DNA from: a virus
Lineage: Duplodnaviria; Caudoviricetes
Length of the DNA: 39,708 nucleotides
Direction: 5' to 3' (one strand)
Virus record (IMG/VR): IMGVR_UViG_3300020045_004239
Span: 1 to 39,708 of that record
Below are positions 1-39,708 of the stretch, piece after piece. The translations under genes and the position numbers were made by a program. Under the pieces are notes generated by a model. The model was not told where the DNA came from, did not search any database, and worked only from the letters and a program-made list of their open reading frames with translations. The stretch's first letter is position 1; every line of letters begins with the position of its first letter.

Positions 1-915
1 CCAACCATGATAATCATCAGCAATTCCTAAATACTGTTTTAAGCTAAACACAGTTTTATCATGGCAATGGCTATGATGACACTTAAAATTCCCTTGGTCA
101 TAACCATTATAATGAGCCAAGAAATAACGTGCAGAGCCATCAGGAGTTTTATCAGTATGATTATCAGTCCAAGGGCAATCTAACCTATAGATACCACTGT
201 TTATGCGCTCGATTATTAATCCTCTATTATTTAGCGCATCAAAAACTTGGTCATCTATCTCTGGTATGAATTTTGATTTATTCGATGGAGACTCAAAACC
301 AACAGCGGTCTCAGAGATTTCAGAGTATTTCCCAAATACCAAATCTAATTCCTCAAACGAGTATCTAACATTATTGTCAATAAAACAAACCCTGCTAGGA
401 TTATCCTTGTCCTTCCAATGCAAATACCCAGGTAATCTCAAATACCTAGTACAATCCTTAGCACCTTTATCAAATCCATAGTGCGTAACTAATTTAGATT
501 GAAGAATATTCCATTGTTCTAAGCTAACTACGCTATTATCTGATATTAACCAGTAATAATGATACTTATTGCCCTCTTTAGATGAAGATGATTGAACAAT
601 CAATGAAGGTTTTAAATCAAAATCATCCCTAGGTTCTGGTCTTTTAATATCATCATCACCAAACAATGCTCTAGCCCGCATAAACATAGCGGTTGTTCTT
701 TCTCTTTCTGGGTCTTTCGATTGGTCTAATTCATTTACTGTAAAGAATATGGATTCTTTATGTTCATTATTTCTTGGTATTAAATTCTGTTTTGCAAAGC
801 GGTATTCCCTTTGCTGATGCCTAGGGCGATTTGAAGCATCATCCATAACAACAAATATTTGTTTTCCAACAAAATGCCCCAAAAATGATTCAGTATCAAA
901 AGACCAATCTTTCAT
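1..915 (-). CDS. RepB-family (AEP) DNA primase with C-terminal zinc-binding domain; runs off the window start
   Basis: Not in the ORF track; translated by hand from ATG at 915 (AGGA upstream): MKDWSFDTESFLGHF...ALFGDDD...PSLIVQSSSSKEGNKYHYYWL...DCTRYLRLPGYLHWK...CPWTDNH...FKCHHSHC. 305 codons with no stop. The DxD, SS..GxxHxYW and RLPG motifs are typical of RepB-type primases. Confidence 0.85.
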   Translation of the reverse strand, partial: MKDWSFDTESFLGHFVGKQIFVVMDDASNRPRHQQREYRFAKQNLIPRNNEHKESIFFTVNELDQSKDPERERTTAMFMRARALFGDDDIKRPEPRDDFDLKPSLIVQSSSSKEGNKYHYYWLISDNSVVSLEQWNILQSKLVTHYGFDKGAKDCTRYLRLPGYLHWKDKDNPSRVCFIDNNVRYSFEELDLVFGKYSEISETAVGFESPSNKSKFIPEIDDQVFDALNNRGLIIERINSGIYRLDCPWTDNHTDKTPDGSARYFLAHYNGYDQGNFKCHHSHCHDKTVFSLKQYLGIADDYHGW

Positions 916-5880: not shown

Positions 5881-6513
5881 ATGAGTAATGCACAAAAATT
5901 TGTTAATGAAGAAATTGTTGACGAAAACGAAACCAAACAAGACATCCAAAATGATACACAGGAAGAAGACAACAAAGACCCAGCTTTTGAAGAAATCAAA
6001 GCAGCGTTCCAAGAAGCATATGCAAAAGAAGGCGCAGATGACGAAGCTGTTAAGATGGCTATGTTGATGGCTGGTGCTAAGTTTGCTAATGTAGCCCGTT
6101 ACTTTAACCAACTAATGGTTGAATTTGGTTTTACTAAGAGCAAAGAAGAAAGAAATCAAATCCTTGACAAGTTGCTTTCTGGTCTTGACTTGACTATTGA
6201 AACTACATTTGATGAAGCACTGAACAAAACTGCCGAAACGCTGGATGTTAACGAGCGTTCTGCCGCTACTTCTGTAAGAATGTGGTGCAAGAAAAATGAA
6301 GTTGAATTTTTCAAGAAACCTAAAGCAGAACCAAGTGAAAGTCGTTCAAGTTTCGATACCAATATGTATCAGTGGATTCTTGACAACATGAATGCAACGG
6401 TTGAGCAATTCACCACTTACTTGGATGAAGTTGGTACAGAAAACACAAAGCGGTTCAGAGCCAAACATTTGGGTATTTTTGATTTTGTACAAAAAATCAA
6501 AGCCAAGTATTAA
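5881..6513 (+). CDS. Hypothetical protein (210 aa), acidic N-terminus; paralog of 38435-39004
   Basis: Has its own promoter, AGGA SD and downstream terminator; the C-terminal ~60 aa align by eye with 38435-39004. Confidence 0.8.
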   Translation: MSNAQKFVNEEIVDENETKQDIQNDTQEEDNKDPAFEEIKAAFQEAYAKEGADDEAVKMAMLMAGAKFANVARYFNQLMVEFGFTKSKEERNQILDKLLSGLDLTIETTFDEALNKTAETLDVNERSAATSVRMWCKKNEVEFFKKPKAEPSESRSSFDTNMYQWILDNMNATVEQFTTYLDEVGTENTKRFRAKHLGIFDFVQKIKAKY

Positions 6514-6579: not shown

Positions 6580-7455
6580 ATGATAATTTTAGGTGCAGGA
6601 TTAAGTGGATGTATTGCATCACTAATGATTCCAGGATCCAAAGTATATGAGCCGCTTAAAGAAGTCAAAAAACATCAAGCAATTTTAAGATTTAAAAACG
6701 ATTCAATTTCAAAAACATTAGGCATACCATTCAAAAAAGTTAAAGTATATAAAGCCATCTGGCACAATGATCGCAATGTTCAATTATCTCCACAATACAT
6801 AATAAGATACTCTAGGAAAGTATCACCAAAAATATCCCATAGATCAATATGCAATCTTGATACAGAAGAAAGATATATTGCACCAAACAATTTGCATGAA
6901 ATATTGCTTGAAATGTGTAGTCCTATGTTTGGATTTGATATTAATTTAATAAAAGAGAATAGTCATACAACAATAAGCACACTTCCAATTGATGTATTAT
7001 GTTCTAATCTAGGGATTGATATACCCAAACTAGAATATCATTCAATATTAATAAGCAGGTTTAGAGTTCCTGATTGCGACGCACATATGACCAACTATTA
7101 TACAGGCGCGACTACCGCTGTATACAGAGCATCCATAGTAGGGGATGAATTGATTATTGAATCAGCTTTTGATATAATAAAAGAAGATATTGAACAAGTA
7201 TTAAACTCTTTCGGGTTAATGGGTATTAGGGTTCTTCCTATCATTGAAAATTATGAGCAAAAGTATGGCAAGATTACACCTTGGTGTGATGATGAGCGAA
7301 AAGCAATATTATATAAACTAACAAAAGAACATAACATCTATTCATTAGGCAGATTTGCTGTGTGGAGAAATATACAGTTAGATGATGTGTACAATGACAT
7401 ATTGCGAATTAAAGAGTGGTCTAATTTAAATGAATATGATAAGATTGTAAGCTAA
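6580..7455 (+). CDS. FAD-dependent oxidoreductase, UDP-galactopyranose mutase-like (291 aa)
   Basis: GGAG SD and ATG 6580 (the track start at 6526 runs through the terminator). N-terminal IILGAGLSG...VYE Rossmann motif; C-terminal IYSLGRFAVWRNIQLDDV resembles the GRxxxY.Y..MD motif of Glf/UGM. Confidence 0.65.
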   Translation: MIILGAGLSGCIASLMIPGSKVYEPLKEVKKHQAILRFKNDSISKTLGIPFKKVKVYKAIWHNDRNVQLSPQYIIRYSRKVSPKISHRSICNLDTEERYIAPNNLHEILLEMCSPMFGFDINLIKENSHTTISTLPIDVLCSNLGIDIPKLEYHSILISRFRVPDCDAHMTNYYTGATTAVYRASIVGDELIIESAFDIIKEDIEQVLNSFGLMGIRVLPIIENYEQKYGKITPWCDDERKAILYKLTKEHNIYSLGRFAVWRNIQLDDVYNDILRIKEWSNLNEYDKIVS

Positions 7456-7937
7456 TGTTAAATCAAATACTGCTAAAGAAATTATTAAACTATGATGAAA
7501 ATACTGGTATTTTTACTAGAAGAATTTCGTTACATGGTAAGGTAAAAGTAGGCGATATTGCAGGTACAATTGCAAATGATGGCTATTGCCACATACGAGT
7601 TGATTCAAAAAGATACCAAGCACACAGATTAGCTTGGCTTTATGTCCACGGGGAATGGCCTACGAATCAAATTGACCATATTAATGGTATAAGAAACGAC
7701 AATAGGATTGCAAACTTAAGAGAAGCAACTCGTTCTGAAAATCAACAAAATAGAAAAACATCTAATTACAATAGTACTAGTGGTTATTTAGGAGTTTCTG
7801 TAAATAAAGATGCTTATACATCCTATATTAGATTAAATGGAAAAATAATTTATTTAGGAAGATTTAAAAACCCATAGCTGGCACATCAGGCTTATTTAAG
7901 TGCTAAACGTCAACTACACTCACACAATACATTATGA
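7455..7937 (+). pseudogene. HNH-AP2 homing endonuclease interrupted by an in-frame TAG at 7875-7877
   Basis: AHRLAWLY...IDHING.R.DNRIANLR...N motifs; after GRFKNP* the frame continues LAHQAYLSAKRQLHSHNTL*, the AP2 C-terminal helix, ending in an ATGA overlap with the next gene. Confidence 0.8.
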
Positions 7938-8665
7938 AAGTAACATTAATTGATTATCAACCAGATGCACTTGAGCTTTTAATATTTACTAGAGGAACTA
8001 GGTTAAAAGGTGTTAAAAGCATAAACGATATTCGCAATTGGACAGAGCAACAAAAACTAGATGAGCTTGCTAAGATCAAGGACACTATCAAGTCATCATG
8101 GGAATTTGCAACTTACATATTTTCAATTGAAGGTGTCAGCAGGAATTTCACTCATCAGCTAGTTAGAACTCGTACACAGTCTTATGCACAAGAAAGTTTA
8201 CGCGCTGTAGATGCAAGCGAAAGCGGCGTTTATAATCTTGGTCTTAATGAGGCTTATGATGATGCTGTTTACACTTCATTAGCTTGCTATAAGGAGCAGA
8301 TAGGGCAAGGCGTACCGATTCAGGACGCTAGGGGATGCCTCCCTACTGATATACTCACTAACATACTTGTAAAGACAGATTTACGCACTTTACACGATAC
8401 CGCTTTAACTAGATTGTGCGTACGAACAGCGGGGGAATATCAATCAATATTCAAAGCTATGAAAGCTGAGGTAGTTAAAGTTCATCCTTGGGCAGAAGAT
8501 TTTATGAATGTCGCTTGCGTGCAAACTGGTATCTGTTGCTTCCCTAGATATACAGAATGCCCAGTTCAGCCTTATACTATAAAAGTTCAACAAGACCAAA
8601 AAGATGCAATTAAGAAAGTTTGGCGACAAACCAATCACGTAGCAGACCCATCAGGTGTAAAATAA
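7934..8665 (+). CDS. thyX: Divergent ThyX (flavin-dependent thymidylate synthase) homolog
   Basis: FSIEGVSRNFTHQLVRTRTQSYAQESLR, DARGCLP, RLCVR..GE and the C-terminal C..TG.C motif. The canonical RHR-X7-S motif reads RTR-X7-S. Confidence 0.85.
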   Translation: MKVTLIDYQPDALELLIFTRGTRLKGVKSINDIRNWTEQQKLDELAKIKDTIKSSWEFATYIFSIEGVSRNFTHQLVRTRTQSYAQESLRAVDASESGVYNLGLNEAYDDAVYTSLACYKEQIGQGVPIQDARGCLPTDILTNILVKTDLRTLHDTALTRLCVRTAGEYQSIFKAMKAEVVKVHPWAEDFMNVACVQTGICCFPRYTECPVQPYTIKVQQDQKDAIKKVWRQTNHVADPSGVK

Positions 8666-9546
8666 TGAAAGTATTATTGCAAGTACCAAGTTTATATCCA
8701 AATAGATTTGAAATATTTTATGAATCCTTCATTGAACACATGAAGGGGCATTTCCCAAATTGGCATATTAACCGCATTGACACAACACTATATGATGCCC
8801 CTTATATGTGCAGATACAGAGCTAATATCCCAGCTAGGTATGATTACGTCATGCAATGCGATGATGATCTTATTTGGAATAAAGAATGTGTTGATTATTA
8901 TAAAAAAATTGAACTAATATTAAGTAAAATTAGACCTGATGTTTTAAATGTATTTGGTTCTCGTTATCCTAGAGAACTATATCAACCAAATAATTGCATG
9001 ATTGCTACTAATAGAGGGCTGTTTATAAGACAAGAGCATTTGGATTCATTAGTGTGGCTTAATGAAATAAAAGATTTAAAATATGGATTAGAAGAATCTG
9101 TACTTGCGTTTAAGGCACTAGAAAATGGTGGTAAATTTATGGTCATAGGACAATCACCGCTTGAAAGGACGCATAAGTCTGGTAATATTGAACGTGGCAA
9201 TCCTAGTATTTTACATGACTTGACATTAATCGAACAAAACTGTATAAGGTTTATTCGTGAAAGATACAACGACCCTACATGGGATTTTAAAACTGGTAAT
9301 TTTCCTAAAGGATTAAATATGACAGCAAGTAAAAAACAGATAGGTGGTAATCATTACTCAAAGTTAGCTATTCAGCCTTTTGAGTATTGTCACAAAAACC
9401 ACATAGAAGGCGCAGAATCAGCGGTTATAGCATACGTTACCCGTCACCGCGACAAGAACAAGGCTGAGGATTTAAAGAAAGCCATACATACACTTGAACT
9501 TTTACTTGAAGCTGAATATGGAGAAAAATATGATAATCGCGATTGA
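8665..9546 (+). CDS. GT-A-fold glycosyltransferase-like domain fused to a C-terminal DUF3310 (T7 gp1.7/SaV-like nucleotide kinase) domain
   Basis: ATG 8665 overlaps the ThyX stop (TAATG). YDYVMQCDDDL is a DxD motif, followed by GLEESVLA. C-terminal QIGGNHY...IQPFEY...YVTRHRDKNKAEDLKKAIHTLELL is the DUF3310 signature. Confidence 0.7.
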   Translation: MKVLLQVPSLYPNRFEIFYESFIEHMKGHFPNWHINRIDTTLYDAPYMCRYRANIPARYDYVMQCDDDLIWNKECVDYYKKIELILSKIRPDVLNVFGSRYPRELYQPNNCMIATNRGLFIRQEHLDSLVWLNEIKDLKYGLEESVLAFKALENGGKFMVIGQSPLERTHKSGNIERGNPSILHDLTLIEQNCIRFIRERYNDPTWDFKTGNFPKGLNMTASKKQIGGNHYSKLAIQPFEYCHKNHIEGAESAVIAYVTRHRDKNKAEDLKKAIHTLELLLEAEYGEKYDNRD

Positions 9547-10075
9547 TACAGAAACAACTGGGCTTTTGAAGCCTAATGCAGCACCACTCAAAGAACAACC
9601 AAAAATTACAGAAATATATTGTAGAAAGTTTGATTTAGAGGGCAATGTCATTGCAAACTTTCATTCAATGATTAATCCAGAGATTCCTATCCCTGAGCTA
9701 ATTACAAAGATAACAGGCATAAACGACGAAGCGGTTAAAAATGCTCCAACATTTGTCGAGATATACAAAGACTTAGCAGAATTTTTTGTAGGCTGTAAGT
9801 ATGCCACAGGCCATAACCTAGGCTTTGACAGGGATATGCTTGCAAACGAACTGTTAAGGATTGACCAAATTTGCGCTTTCCCTTGGCCACCTTTACAGAT
9901 TTGTACAGTGGTAAAGTCTTATGATATTAGAGGTTATAGATTAAGTTTAGATAAACTTTATCGTGAATTATTTAATACAGATAGACCAGGTGTAAAACAT
10001 AGGGCTATGAATGATGTAGTAGATCAAAGCAAATGCTTCTTTAAGCTAATTGAAAGAGGAAATATTGTATTATGA
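9530..10075 (+). CDS. dnaQ: DEDDh 3'-5' exonuclease (DNA Pol III epsilon-like)
   Basis: GGAG SD, ATG 9530; IDTETTG, GHNLGFD and HRAMND motifs. Confidence 0.9.
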   Translation: MIIAIDTETTGLLKPNAAPLKEQPKITEIYCRKFDLEGNVIANFHSMINPEIPIPELITKITGINDEAVKNAPTFVEIYKDLAEFFVGCKYATGHNLGFDRDMLANELLRIDQICAFPWPPLQICTVVKSYDIRGYRLSLDKLYRELFNTDRPGVKHRAMNDVVDQSKCFFKLIERGNIVL

Positions 10076-12777
10076 TGCGTATCGCACTCTTATCTGAATA
10101 CAGTTTTGGTAAATCATACTCTAAGGTTAAAGATTTAGTAAAACTAGAAGGAGATTATATTGGCATTGCCGACTATAACAACACTTTCTCTCATGTGTAT
10201 CTTGAGAAAGAGTGCAAGTCTATTGGAAAGAAACCTATCTTTGGTGTGCGCCTGAATGTTTGCTCTAATATGACTGAACGATTTGATTATCATTCGTTTG
10301 AAACCATATTGATTGCTAAGAATAACGAAGGTCTTAGGGAAATAAACTATCTAACAAGTAAAGTATGGGAGCAGTTCTATTATACACCTAGGCTTTTAAT
10401 TGACCAGTGGCAAGGCATATCGAAAAACATAATCGTTATTGATGCGTATTCTGAGCTAAAACCATTAAACTTTATGAATGGTGGAAATATTTACGTTGAT
10501 TGCAATAACTATATTAATTTGCAGGACAGGGATATTTATCAAATTGTTGCTGGTTCTTCTAAGCGTGGCGATGACCGCAATTTTAACTTCGATACCGCTT
10601 GCTATCCTCAGCACGTTTTAAGTGAAAGAGAAGCTCAAGCATACTTTGGTCAAGAACCTGTTGATTATACTGATGCTGTAGCTAGTCAATGCAATGCTGC
10701 TATCACTAAAGCGGAAATGGTTAAGTTTGATGGCATCAAGGATTTATATGGCATTTGTATTGATAGCTATAAGTATAAGGATGAATATGCAGAGCGGCTT
10801 GAATATGAACTTGGATTAATAAAATCCAAAGGATATGAGGACTACTTCTTAATCGTATCTGATATGATTAAACATGCAAAGAAAAATGGAATATTAGTTG
10901 GTCCGAGTCGTGGTTCGTCTGCTGGTTCTCTTGTCTGTTATTTGATGGATATTACTGAGATTAATCCAATTGAGCATAACTTATTGTTTGAGAGGTTCAT
11001 TGATATTAATCGTACTGACTTGCCTGATATTGATGTGGATTTTCCTGATGATAGTAGAAGTTTTGTTATAGACTATCTTATCAAGAAATATGGATCTAGT
11101 AATGTTAGTTCAGTTGCAAACATAAACAGGCTACAGGCTAAGTCTGCTATAGCTGAATTTGCTTATGCCCTTGGTATTCCTAGGTATTTAACAGAGGATG
11201 TTAAAAATTCAATTGTTGAACGAAGTAGTGGTGATGCTCGTTCATCTAATACGCTTGAGGATACTTTTGAGGATACAGAAGCTGGAAAAACTTTTATTAA
11301 ACAATATCCTGTTATGCGATTATGTTATGAAGTTGAAGGGCTTGCTAATCATGCTGGTAAACATGCCGCTGGTATTATTGTCTCTAATAAGCCGCTTAAC
11401 AATTTTTCGGCGGTTGATTCTAGGGCGGGTATCATTCAACTAGACAAGAAGGGTGCTGACTACGTAGGCCTGCTTAAAATTGACGCGCTAGGGCTACGTA
11501 CACTAACAATTTTATCCGAGATATGCGGTAGCATAGGGATGTCAATAAACGACCTGTACGGGCTTGATTTAGGGGATTCCTTGACCTATCGATTATTCGC
11601 CGATATGCGCCTGAATGGGATTTTTCAGTTTGAAGGGGCTGCGCTTCGGAATATCGTCAAGCAGATCGGGGCAGAGTGCTTTAACGACCTTGCCTTAATT
11701 ACCGCCCTGAGCAGACCGGGTGCATTGAATTCAGGAGGAACGGGTAGGTATATTGAAATTAAAAAAGGGAACAAGGAGGCGATATATCTATCAGAAAAAC
11801 ACAAAGAGATAACAGAAGAATCCTTAGGCGTAGTTGTTTATCAAGAACAAATGATGTCAATTTGTAAGGAAATGGGACGTATGTCATGGGAAGATGTTAA
11901 CTCTTTACGTGCTGCCGCTTCTAGGTCTATGGGCGATGCGTTCTTTGCACAGTATAAGGATAAATTTATCGAAGGGTGTATGGTTGAGTTCCCTAAAGAA
12001 GAAGCGACCTCTTTATGGGAAAACATCAACAAGTCTGGTTCATGGCTATTCAACAAATCTCATGCTGTTAGTTACGCTGTTGTGTCTTATTGGACTGCTT
12101 ATTTCAAGGCGAACTATCCAAAAGAGTTTGCGATTGCTAATTTAAATCATGTTGCTGATGAACAGGCTGGCGTGAGTCTTTTGCGCGACCTTGTTGAAAA
12201 TGATGGCATGAAGTACAAAGCGGTAGACCCTGACGAATCGGATGTGTATTGGACTATTAAAGATGGTATCCTTTTAGGTGGACTTACTAATATTGATGGA
12301 ATAGGCGTATCTAAAGCAAAGGATATTGTTAAGAATAGAAAAACAGGCAAGATGACGCCTGGATTAATGAAAAAGTTAATGAATCCTGTTACTGTTTACG
12401 ACGACCTATATCCAATCAAAACTAAATTCGGAAAGTTATTTACTCCAAATATATCATTCATTAAGGATGTTAAAACAAAAGGCAAGTATGAAATAATAGG
12501 AATGATTGAAACACTTGATACTCGTGATGTAAATGATTATCAGGCACTTGCCAGGCGTGAAGGTAGGCGAATAGAAGGCAATAGTCTATATCTTCGTTTC
12601 ATTATTAAAGATGATACCGATTCTATAATTATGCTTGTCAATTATAAGAGCTATGAAAAGATGAATGGCAAAGCTTTATCAGAAGCGGCAGTTCCAGGAA
12701 CATTTGTATATGTTCGTGCAACACTTGATAGTGAAAGTTGGAGAACACTTAACATTAATTATATTGAGATATTATGA
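10072..12777 (+). CDS. dnaE: Family C DNA polymerase (DnaE / Pol III alpha-like), compact 901 aa
   Basis: PHP-like N-terminus, RGSSAGSLV, LFERF, PDIDVDF, KHAAG, KIDALGL, FQFEG, YQEQ, FNKSHA, HhH GLTNIDGIG and C-terminal OB-like region. Confidence 0.95.
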   Translation: MMRIALLSEYSFGKSYSKVKDLVKLEGDYIGIADYNNTFSHVYLEKECKSIGKKPIFGVRLNVCSNMTERFDYHSFETILIAKNNEGLREINYLTSKVWEQFYYTPRLLIDQWQGISKNIIVIDAYSELKPLNFMNGGNIYVDCNNYINLQDRDIYQIVAGSSKRGDDRNFNFDTACYPQHVLSEREAQAYFGQEPVDYTDAVASQCNAAITKAEMVKFDGIKDLYGICIDSYKYKDEYAERLEYELGLIKSKGYEDYFLIVSDMIKHAKKNGILVGPSRGSSAGSLVCYLMDITEINPIEHNLLFERFIDINRTDLPDIDVDFPDDSRSFVIDYLIKKYGSSNVSSVANINRLQAKSAIAEFAYALGIPRYLTEDVKNSIVERSSGDARSSNTLEDTFEDTEAGKTFIKQYPVMRLCYEVEGLANHAGKHAAGIIVSNKPLNNFSAVDSRAGIIQLDKKGADYVGLLKIDALGLRTLTILSEICGSIGMSINDLYGLDLGDSLTYRLFADMRLNGIFQFEGAALRNIVKQIGAECFNDLALITALSRPGALNSGGTGRYIEIKKGNKEAIYLSEKHKEITEESLGVVVYQEQMMSICKEMGRMSWEDVNSLRAAASRSMGDAFFAQYKDKFIEGCMVEFPKEEATSLWENINKSGSWLFNKSHAVSYAVVSYWTAYFKANYPKEFAIANLNHVADEQAGVSLLRDLVENDGMKYKAVDPDESDVYWTIKDGILLGGLTNIDGIGVSKAKDIVKNRKTGKMTPGLMKKLMNPVTVYDDLYPIKTKFGKLFTPNISFIKDVKTKGKYEIIGMIETLDTRDVNDYQALARREGRRIEGNSLYLRFIIKDDTDSIIMLVNYKSYEKMNGKALSEAAVPGTFVYVRATLDSESWRTLNINYIEIL

Positions 12778-38434: not shown

Positions 38435-39004
38435 ATGACTACTAACTCAAACGACACTACTAAAGAACAGGCACTGAACTCTATATATAAAAAGTACCTA
38501 ACAATTATTGAAGGGATGCAACGTGATGAGGCTGTTCAATTCACGCGGGACAACCCTTGTCAATATACTGCGGATCAATTGAATCAGGCGATCACAAAGA
38601 AACACAAGCTAAACTTTACATTTGCCGAAAAACCTAAGGACAACGCACCTAAAACATTGCAAGACTATTTGAACGAACAACAAATAGCGGAAGCACGCCG
38701 CTTAGTTGAAGCGGGCATTCGGGGAAATACGCTTAAAATGTATTGCAGGGATTTGTTCAAGATACGCGACAAGGCAATATTACAGGCTATCGTTACATTG
38801 CTTGACGTAAAAGTTACGCGCACGGGGTCACGCGGCGATTCATTAGACGACAAGTTCAATGCGTTCTGTGCCGAGAAGGTGCGGACAACTGATGAGATGA
38901 AGGCATTCATCAATGAAATAGGAAGCAAAAACTTTGTGCGGTTCACGCCTCACTTGATAGCTAGGGGTGAAATGTTTAACAAAGTGCATGCAATGCACAA
39001 ATAA
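38435..39004 (+). CDS. Hypothetical early protein (189 aa); paralog of 5881-6513
   Basis: AGGA SD and own promoter; C-terminal domain aligns by eye with 5881-6513. Confidence 0.8.
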   Translation: MTTNSNDTTKEQALNSIYKKYLTIIEGMQRDEAVQFTRDNPCQYTADQLNQAITKKHKLNFTFAEKPKDNAPKTLQDYLNEQQIAEARRLVEAGIRGNTLKMYCRDLFKIRDKAILQAIVTLLDVKVTRTGSRGDSLDDKFNAFCAEKVRTTDEMKAFINEIGSKNFVRFTPHLIARGEMFNKVHAMHK

Positions 39005-39305: not shown

Positions 39306-39698
39306 TTAGATTAACGAGCGTCCCTGATCTGTATTAGGGACAACAAACCCCGCTTCCCTTATCACGACATAAATCGCGCCGTTTTTGACTACCTGACCCC
39401 GATACGCTGCGATCTGTTGCACTTGTGCGTCATTGCCTATTGTTCGTGACTCTTGCAGTGTATCTAAGATAGGCTTTAGCCTGTTGTCTATGTCATATGA
39501 CCTATTGTTCGGTGGATATAACACTATTGATAAATGGATGTCATATAGTATCGTTTCGATATTTGGTAACTGTCCTTGTATCAATTCAACACCGCTTTGT
39601 TTTGCGTGCCTTCCTGCTTTTGACAGGAAAACTCCATTACGTGTCTTTATGTAATAGTTATTGATGCTAGGCATCCAATTTAGGTATAAATTAATCAT
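39306..39698 (-). CDS. rusA: RusA-family Holliday junction resolvase
   Basis: PSINNYY...PPNNRSYDIDNRLKPILDTL......NDAQV motif. Confidence 0.9.
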   Translation of the reverse strand: MINLYLNWMPSINNYYIKTRNGVFLSKAGRHAKQSGVELIQGQLPNIETILYDIHLSIVLYPPNNRSYDIDNRLKPILDTLQESRTIGNDAQVQQIAAYRGQVVKNGAIYVVIREAGFVVPNTDQGRSLI

Positions 39699-39708
39699 AT
39701 TTAGTCCA

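What the first reader, a model, noticed from the sequence alone, without database searches (positions are those of the whole stretch)
6580..12777. Candidate new DNA base-hypermodification operon: UGM-like flavoprotein, atypical ThyX, glycosyltransferase-nucleotide kinase fusion, and dedicated DnaQ/DnaE
Seen: six genes with overlapping stop/start codons once the HNH is read through its amber (junctions at 7455, 7934-7937, 8665, 9530-9546 and 10072-10075). Established: phages protect DNA with thymidylate-synthase-family enzymes that functionalise pyrimidine C5, followed by glycosyltransferases (T4 glucosyl-hmC; arabinosylated cytosines in T4-like phages). UGM/Glf flavoenzymes make furanose NDP-sugars, and T7 gp1.7 (DUF3310) is a dNMP kinase. 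Inference: the ThyX-fold enzyme makes a non-thymine C5-modified dNMP, the flavoprotein supplies an unusual (furanose?) sugar donor or oxidises the base, the GT-kinase fusion glycosylates and phosphorylates it, and the phage family C polymerase incorporates it. I know of no characterised ThyX-based pathway of this kind. Caveat: no dUTPase/MazG or dCMP deaminase was found.
Basis: partly seen in the sequence, partly recalled or inferred. Interest (0 to 1): 0.88.

Follow-up and report, generated by a model that had tools for sequence, protein, structure and literature searches.

The report
Candidate ThyX-based sugar-thymidine hypermodification operon
This uncultured phage carries, beside its own DNA polymerase, an altered thymidylate synthase and a sugar-mutase-fold enzyme shared with phages known to have sugar-decorated thymine of unknown origin; the set likely builds that base, possibly by joining a five-carbon sugar to uracil, which would explain a 50-year-old puzzle.

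Summary
The operon is real, in a near-complete ~40-kb podophage. The flavoprotein has a UDP-galactopyranose-mutase fold. The ThyX keeps its dUMP/FAD arginines but lacks folate-stacking His53 and Tyr91 in all 73 clade members. Flavoprotein, ThyX, DnaQ and DnaE co-occur (59, 60, 59 of 63 loci) around a swappable slot of hydroxyl-capping enzymes; here a likely GT-A fused to DUF3310. Pbunaviruses F8 and 14-1 share the core and carry a measured hypermodified thymidine whose genes are unassigned. The HNH is a mobile passenger with a nonsense codon, not recoding. The scan found this cassette before on other DNA. New here: SP-15, Carin-5 and YerA41, the other phages with polyol-linked thymidine, share a second diverged ThyX family, and the four masses (T+120, +104, +88) fit one pentyl chain losing oxygens. 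Best reading: ThyX couples a pentose to dUMP C5 (about 0.45; about 0.75 that the cassette modifies thymidine). Against: no chemistry for this phage, 14-1's mass and TG specificity are unexplained, no TG-site signature in this genome, the clade ThyX is usually the only thymidylate synthase.

The parts
6580..7455 (+). Flavoprotein of UDP-galactopyranose-mutase fold, 291 aa, phage family of unknown function (core gene)
   Evidence: phrog_4828; model pLDDT 95; top Foldseek and VIA hits UGM, 4dsg Z 20.5; 1148 clusters at 50% identity
7455..7937 (+). HNH endonuclease, optional insertion, interrupted by TAG at 7875-7877; passenger, not part of the pathway
   Evidence: HNH_3; intact in L005, absent in L006
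7934..8665 (+). Atypical ThyX: His53->Ile52, His79->Thr79, Tyr91->Ala91, arginines kept, clade motif TKxTRL (TRGTRL here) at 19-24 (core gene)
8665..9315 (+). Likely GT-A glycosyltransferase domain (CDDD and GLEE motifs); variable tailoring slot
   Evidence: ESM Atlas 0.96 to viral GT2/GT64 clusters; motifs; no PDB or clear Pfam hit
9316..9546 (+). DUF3310 (T7 gp1.7-like) helical domain fused behind the GT; predicted nucleotide kinase
   Evidence: exchanged with a DUF6378-like domain in relatives
9530..10075 (+). DnaQ-like DEDDh proofreading exonuclease
   Evidence: (DTETTG, HNLGFD, HRAMND)
10072..12777 (+). Family C DNA polymerase DnaE, 901 aa
   Evidence: PDIDVD at residue 318

Best explanation
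The operon is a conserved phage cassette that likely makes a sugar-chain-modified thymidine nucleotide, and its ThyX is predicted to join a pentose, instead of a folate-borne CH2, to C5 of dUMP. Steps: (1, shown) the ThyX keeps the dUMP- and FAD-binding arginines and has lost His53 and Tyr91 across the clade. (2, inferred) Reduced flavin N5 would take up the aldehyde carbon of a pentose phosphate as it takes up formaldehyde in T. maritima ThyX, pass it to dUMP C5, and reduction would give 5-(2,3,4,5-tetrahydroxypentyl)-dUMP, nucleoside mass 362, the mass measured in F8. (3, inferred, weakest) The UGM-fold flavoprotein would supply the ring-opened sugar or reduce a C-ribosyl intermediate (360 to 362). 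(4, inferred) DUF3310 would phosphorylate the bulky dNMP and DnaE/DnaQ would put it in place of part of the thymidines. (5, inferred) The GT domain would cap a chain hydroxyl, as methyl-, sulfo- and carbamoyltransferases would in relatives; no SDR/VOC pair here, so the chain should keep all four hydroxyls (362, or 524 with one hexose). Purpose: likely protection from host nucleases. Odds: about 0.75 that the cassette modifies thymidine, about 0.45 for the pentose coupling.
For: Co-occurrence: of 63 IMG/VR loci with at least 5 kb downstream of the flavoprotein (80 fetched, the best of 398 confirmed; several near-duplicates), 59 have the clade ThyX, 60 DnaQ, 59 DnaE; 7 of 7 GTDB contigs with the flavoprotein have the clade ThyX. 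Residues (73 clade sequences; T. maritima numbering): H53->I 73/73, Y91->V/A/T/I 73/73, S88 kept in 34/73, R78, R80, R90, R147, R174 73/73. H53 stacks on folate and Y91 mutants slow the step 100-1000-fold; ThyX can use free formaldehyde through flavin N5 (PMC11940539, PMC8316439, passages). F8 and 14-1 carry both core genes and a thymidine of 362 or 390 u (END preprint section 8). F8 has no ThyA-family gene, so no classical hmdUMP synthase; 31 of 32 cassette genomes lack one. SP-15 gp130, a second diverged ThyX, has 11 tblastn matches in 50,697 phage records, among them Carin-5 and YerA41, the phages with measured linkers T+88 and T+104; SP-15's chain is C-linked dihydroxypentyl; masses 362/346/330 fit 4/3/2 hydroxyls. 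An SDR is present in SP-15, Carin-5, YerA41 and absent in F8. Variable slot: SDR 27 and VOC 26 of 80 loci, methyltransferase 19, sulfotransferase 4, carbamoyltransferase 4, radical SAM 4, GT-like 7. One complete genome (G005) has a second ThyX with His and SQRY kept.
Against: No chemistry exists for this phage. 362 is equally a tetritol ether of hmdU, and 14-1's 390 fits pentosyl-hmdU and does not sit on the ladder without an extra step, although F8 and 14-1 have the same cassette genes (ThyX 94%, flavoprotein 97% identical). A precursor route does not explain why the Pbunavirus base sits in TG. The window shows no relief of avoidance for TG-containing palindromes (0.63 vs 0.76, p 0.82), nor do its two closest tested relatives; 10 of 18 cassette genomes do, but so does 1 of 5 controls. 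The clade ThyX was the only ThyX match in 28 of 28 cassette genomes, as an ordinary dTMP synthase would be. The SP-15-type ThyX is a separate family (hhalign probability 72.8) and SP-15, Carin-5, YerA41 lack the flavoprotein. One complete genome (G004) and 3 further loci of the 63 have the flavoprotein without the clade ThyX. The ribose labelling of SP-15's chain is known to me from a reference title only.
Confidence: 0.45

Rival explanations
1. Hydroxymethyl route: ThyX stops at 5-hydroxymethyl-dUMP, the UGM-fold enzyme makes a furanose NDP-sugar, and a transferase attaches it before or after replication.
For: 390 equals pentosyl-hmdU; the END authors read 14-1 as a cyclised aldopentose; a true UGM supplies galactofuranose in RL38J1; the flavoprotein's best fold match is UGM; loss of Tyr91/Ser88 could stall the reaction; a GT is present here.
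Against: GT-like genes are in only 7 of 80 loci and none is annotated in F8, 14-1 or PB1; loss of folate-stacking His53 in 73 of 73 argues against a folate donor; SP-15's chain is C-C linked.
Confidence: 0.27
2. Post-replicative route: the flavoprotein, or another gene outside the cassette, modifies T or dU in DNA at TG sites; ThyX only feeds or balances the pool.
For: Strict TG context with about a quarter of T replaced; TG-palindrome relief in F8, 14-1, Ss1, VA-RY-3; flavoprotein without clade ThyX in G004.
Against: Tight linkage to a kinase-like domain, a HAD phosphatase (50 of 63 loci) and the phage's own DnaE/DnaQ points to a nucleotide precursor; SP-15's base is reported as made before DNA synthesis.
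Confidence: 0.15
3. Ordinary replication module: a drifted but working dTMP synthase, kinase, exonuclease and polymerase, with unrelated passengers; the Pbunavirus base is made elsewhere.
For: Only thymidylate synthase in most genomes; arginines and Ser88 kept in this copy; no TG signature in this genome.
Against: Clade-wide fixed loss of His53 and Tyr91 with a new fixed motif; near-obligate partner flavoprotein; a slot filled again and again by hydroxyl-capping enzymes; below the TIGR02170 cut-off (77.8 vs 87.9).
Confidence: 0.13

Closest known systems
Pbunavirus F8 / 14-1 hypermodified thymidine (Yee et al., bioRxiv 10.1101/2025.03.31.646159; passages and section 8 read, spectra not seen)
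   Same: Same core: flavoprotein (34-36% identity), clade ThyX, helical domain, DnaQ, DnaE.
   Different: Here a podophage; HAD-DUF6378 replaced by GT-DUF3310; no MazG match; genes unassigned in the paper; no TG signature in this genome.
SP-15 5-(4',5'-dihydroxypentyl)uracil and the Carin-5 / YerA41 linkers (PMC5977210, PMC12686479, PMC13697223; passages)
   Same: Polyol chain on thymine, partial replacement, a diverged ThyX lacking His53 and Tyr91 by alignment, later glycosylation.
   Different: Their ThyX is a separate ~400-aa family; family A polymerase; SDR present; no flavoprotein; a nucleoside 2-deoxyribosyltransferase-family gene lies near it in 4 of 7 loci.
Flavin-dependent thymidylate synthase ThyX (PF02511, TIGR02170)
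   Same: Fold, dUMP/FAD arginines, E58.
   Different: His53, His79, Tyr91 lost; Ser88 variable; TKxTRL motif; under the TIGR cut-off.
UDP-galactopyranose mutase (Glf), incl. RL38J1 gp84 (PMC13326640, passages)
   Same: Best structural match (Z 20.5, rmsd 3.4 A over 283 residues); GxGxxG.
   Different: No Pfam, NCBIfam or PDB sequence match; 70-180 residues shorter; other amine-oxidase-clan folds follow at Z 17.8.
ThyA-family routes: T4 glucosyl-hmC, arabinosyl-5-hydroxy-dC, hmdU hypermodification of M6/ViI/PaMx11
   Same: Thymidylate-synthase relative plus tailoring enzymes beside the replisome.
   Different: They use the unrelated ThyA fold, absent from 31 of 32 cassette genomes.

Membership tests
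Canonical ThyX | ThyX fold / PF02511 | tested here: met
Canonical ThyX | RHRx7S signature | tested here: not met
   RTRx7S here; His in 4 of 73, Ser in 34 of 73
Canonical ThyX | Folate-stacking His53 and acid Tyr91 | tested here: not met
   Ile52, Ala91; 0 of 73 keep either
Canonical ThyX | dUMP/FAD arginines R78, R80, R90, R147, R174 | tested here: met
   73 of 73
Canonical ThyX | TIGR02170 cut-off | tested here: not met
   77.8 bits vs 87.9; the second ThyX of G005 also falls short (82.9), so this is a weak test
Canonical ThyX | dTMP synthesis, thyA complementation | not testable with these tools
   needs bench
UDP-galactopyranose mutase | UGM fold with dinucleotide-binding GxGxxG | tested here: met
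UDP-galactopyranose mutase | Sequence family match (GLF) | tested here: not met
   no Pfam, NCBIfam or PDB hit
UDP-galactopyranose mutase | Substrate-binding arginines and tyrosines | tested here: inconclusive
   invariant R88, R98, R183, Y77, Y173 exist; their match to UGM residues is recalled, no residue-level superposition was returned
UDP-galactopyranose mutase | Pyranose-furanose interconversion | not testable with these tools
   needs bench
GT-A glycosyltransferase | DxD-like motif after a strand and acidic catalytic pair | tested here: met
   D66-D68 invariant in 13 close homologs, D66 and E144 in the 7-row wider set
GT-A glycosyltransferase | GT-A fold or family match | tested here: inconclusive
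   Atlas 0.96; GT2 in 1 of 13 at E 0.015; none; no fold run (both predictions spent)
T7 gp1.7-like kinase (DUF3310) | Domain match | tested here: inconclusive
   12 of 13 homologs match, this copy under the cut-off; PHROG kinase E 6e-11
T7 gp1.7-like kinase (DUF3310) | dNMP kinase activity | not testable with these tools
   reported for gp1.7 only (PMC9339283 passage)
Pbunavirus thymidine hypermodification | Shared candidate core genes | tested here: met
Pbunavirus thymidine hypermodification | TG context | tested here: inconclusive
   no palindrome signature here; test imperfect
Pbunavirus thymidine hypermodification | Modified nucleoside in virion DNA | not testable with these tools
   no isolate
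SP-15 DHPU system | gp130-type ThyX, SDR and family A polymerase | tested here: not met
   different ThyX family, no SDR, DnaE instead

The most novel reading that the evidence does not exclude
ThyX-fold flavoenzymes without the folate histidine form a C-C bond between a sugar and dUMP, a new reaction for the thymidylate synthase families, used by two phage lineages: the flavoprotein-linked clade (over 1,000 protein clusters, therapeutic Pbunaviruses included) and the SP-15/Carin-5/YerA41 clade. One pentyl scaffold is then deoxygenated (SDR, VOC) or capped (sugar, methyl, sulfate, carbamoyl), giving a whole family of unknown DNA bases; this phage would carry a glycosylated tetrahydroxypentyl-uracil placed by a family C polymerase, perhaps by sequence context.
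Probability: 0.4. Interest if true: 0.92.

Novelty: new variant of a known kind. Interest (0 to 1): 0.76.

Why it matters
It names testable genes for two open questions: how Pbunaviruses, widely used in phage therapy, make their hypermodified thymidine, and how SP-15 makes its pentyl-uracil, unresolved since the 1970s. Gene content predicts the base (no SDR: T+120; SDR/VOC: T+104 or T+88; plus caps). It would add folate-free carbon-carbon chemistry to ThyX, and a polymerase that accepts bulky bases. Many genes annotated 'thymidylate synthase' in these phages would be misnamed.

Tried and rejected
Amber read-through or recoding: rejected; no tRNA genes. Sequence searches of the flavoprotein and GT against PDB, Pfam, NCBIfam: nothing. 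SP-15 as holder of the same cassette: rejected, no flavoprotein and a different ThyX. Gene difference between F8 and 14-1 to explain 362 vs 390: none found in the 15 gene pairs compared. Palindrome-avoidance test for TG modification: inconclusive for this genome, one false-looking positive among five controls. ThyX tree: long branches, no usable answer on common origin. Complex prediction of ThyX dimer with the flavoprotein: no answer. dUTPase, MazG, dCTP deaminase, NDT, HAD, SDR, VOC in the window: no match with the queries used; the record lacks part of the primase at its join, so absence is not absolute. Literature: searches found no paper assigning genes to the Pbunavirus base or proposing pentose coupling by ThyX; the library omits most subscription papers, and bioRxiv supplements and figures were not visible, which may bear on the linkage of the F8 and 14-1 bases.
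Full report
Observation. The window is a near-complete ~40-kb podophage genome (portal, capsid, terminase, lysis genes) related in gene order to Cronobacter phage Ss1 and Vibrio phage VA-RY-3. The six ORFs and their overlaps are as described. The HNH is not read through: TAG ends four other ORFs of 37 checked, the L005 orthologue is intact with the same tail, and L006, whose flavoprotein is 82% identical, has no HNH.

Flavoprotein (6580-7455). No Pfam, NCBIfam or PDB sequence hit; phrog_4828 of unknown function. The model (pLDDT 95) matches UDP-galactopyranose mutases best by Foldseek and by VIA (4dsg Z 20.5, rmsd 3.4 A, 283 residues; protoporphyrinogen oxidase next at 17.8). The family has 1,148 clusters at 50% identity, 362 of 50,697 phage records, mostly Pbunavirus and kin, and only 7 hits, with one pattern, in the GTDB genomes, all MAG contigs that also carry the clade ThyX.

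ThyX (7934-8665). Fold confirmed. Mapped on T. maritima ThyX, the 73 clade sequences keep R78, R80, R90, R147, R174 and E58 without exception, replace His53 by Ile and Tyr91 by V/A/T/I without exception, keep Ser88 in 34 and His79 in 4, and share a new TKxTRL motif (four ThyX rows of other types left out). His53 stacks on folate and Tyr91 mutants slow the carbon transfer 100-1000-fold (PMC11940539, PMC8316439; passages). The same papers show that ThyX can take free formaldehyde onto flavin N5.

Context. Eighty IMG/VR loci were fetched on the flavoprotein (best of 398 confirmed; some near-duplicates; the ThyX profile was built from 53 of them). Of 63 with at least 5 kb downstream, 59 have the clade ThyX, 60 DnaQ, 59 DnaE, 50 a HAD phosphatase, and 55 either DUF3310 or a DUF6378-like helical domain, never both. 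Between ThyX and DnaQ sits a swappable slot: SDR with a glyoxalase-fold protein, methyltransferase, sulfotransferase, carbamoyltransferase, radical SAM enzyme or a GT-like domain. In the nearest relatives it holds a GT-A-like domain (window, L006), an unassigned 303-aa protein that looks GT-B-like to me (L005; no family hit), a methyltransferase (L007, L009) or a sulfotransferase (L008, L012). Most of these act on hydroxyls, which suggests a polyol substrate (inference). The GT call rests on Atlas look-alikes at 0.96 and motifs; DUF3310's kinase role rests on T7 gp1.7.

Link to measured chemistry. F8 and 14-1 carry the core and thymidine derivatives of 362 and 390 u replacing about a quarter of T in TG context; the paper assigns no genes (section 8; spectra not seen). 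Wifceviruses, which also carry it, are described as considerably resistant to restriction (passage). F8 has no ThyA-family gene. SP-15 has a C-linked dihydroxypentyl-uracil made before DNA synthesis, and a cited title reports ribose label in it. SP-15 encodes a second, diverged ThyX, gp130, beside an SDR. Its 11 tblastn matches include Carin-5 and YerA41, the two other phages with measured linkers, T+88 and T+104. Masses 362, 346 and 330 are dU plus a five-carbon chain with four, three and two hydroxyls; an SDR is present in the three deoxygenated cases and absent in F8. By alignment the gp130 family also lacks His53 and Tyr91, and a nucleoside 2-deoxyribosyltransferase-family gene lies near it in SP-15, Va2, 1.031.O and phiXF1, 4 of 7 loci; that some members of this family free ribose 5-phosphate is recalled.

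Mechanism. I commit to a precursor route in which ThyX couples a pentose to dUMP C5 through flavin N5, the UGM-fold enzyme supplies or reduces the sugar (N5-sugar adducts in UGM are recalled), DUF3310 phosphorylates, DnaE/DnaQ incorporates and the GT caps a hydroxyl. Only the gene content, folds, residue changes and co-occurrence are shown; every reaction is inferred.

Against. 362 and 390 have O-linked isomers on hmdU; 390 is off the ladder although F8 and 14-1 share the cassette. TG specificity is unexplained. TG-containing six-base palindromes are not avoided in F8, 14-1, Ss1, VA-RY-3 and six IMG genomes (10 of 18 at p up to 0.05), but the window shows no such relief (0.63 vs 0.76) and control LIT1 does (1 of 5). 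The clade ThyX is the only ThyX match in 28 of 28 genomes, and 31 of 32 lack ThyA. G005 has a second, more canonical ThyX, which favours a separate job; G004 has the flavoprotein with a third ThyX type and ThyA but no clade ThyX. The two ThyX families are only distantly related and the tree was not usable.

Novelty. No paper in my searches assigns this pathway. Earlier notes of this scan reached the cassette-Pbunavirus link on other genomes; a word search found none with the SP-15 link and a sequence search none with this GT-DUF3310 fusion. Verdict: a new variant of phage pyrimidine hypermodification, with a real chance of new thymidylate-synthase chemistry; interest 0.76.

Noticed in passing
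window 1-915 (-) and 39306-39708: The primase N-terminal half runs off the start of the record and the helicase half is missing, so the record lacks roughly a kilobase or more at its join.
   Followed up: partly
window 5881-6513 (+) and 38435-39004 (+): Two acidic/basic unknown proteins that look alike in style; the first is kept just upstream of the flavoprotein in about 15 podophage loci (cluster 17).
   Followed up: no
L092:13730-16911 (SP-15 gp127-gp130); L096:6998-8224; L097:6920-8083: A ~400-aa diverged ThyX family confined to about ten phage records, with NDT-family and SDR neighbours; best candidate for the SP-15, Carin-5 and YerA41 pentyl linker.
   Followed up: partly
L051:6917-14847 (G004): Flavoprotein, HAD, DnaQ, DnaE, thymidylate-kinase-like gene, a third atypical ThyX type, MazG and a ThyA in one run.
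   Followed up: partly
L084:6944-14601 (G005): Two ThyX genes in one complete genome: one with His and SQRY kept, one of the clade.
   Followed up: partly
L005:9297-10208: 303-aa protein without family hit in the tailoring slot of the closest relative; looks GT-B-like.
   Followed up: partly
W11 (phage LIT1) 1001-41000: TG-containing palindromes escape avoidance (0.90 vs 0.56, p 0.005) although LIT1 lacks the clade ThyX; chance or an unknown protection.
   Followed up: no
window, whole: Strong avoidance of CCGG (2 vs 21 expected) and GATC (57 vs 130), suggesting sensitivity to host restriction at those sites.
   Followed up: no
L004:10001-14170 (Rhizobium phage TM30): Carries flavoprotein and clade ThyX but is listed with SP-15-like family A polymerases; a bridge between the two lineages. 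It also has a distant GT-domain match elsewhere.
   Followed up: partly
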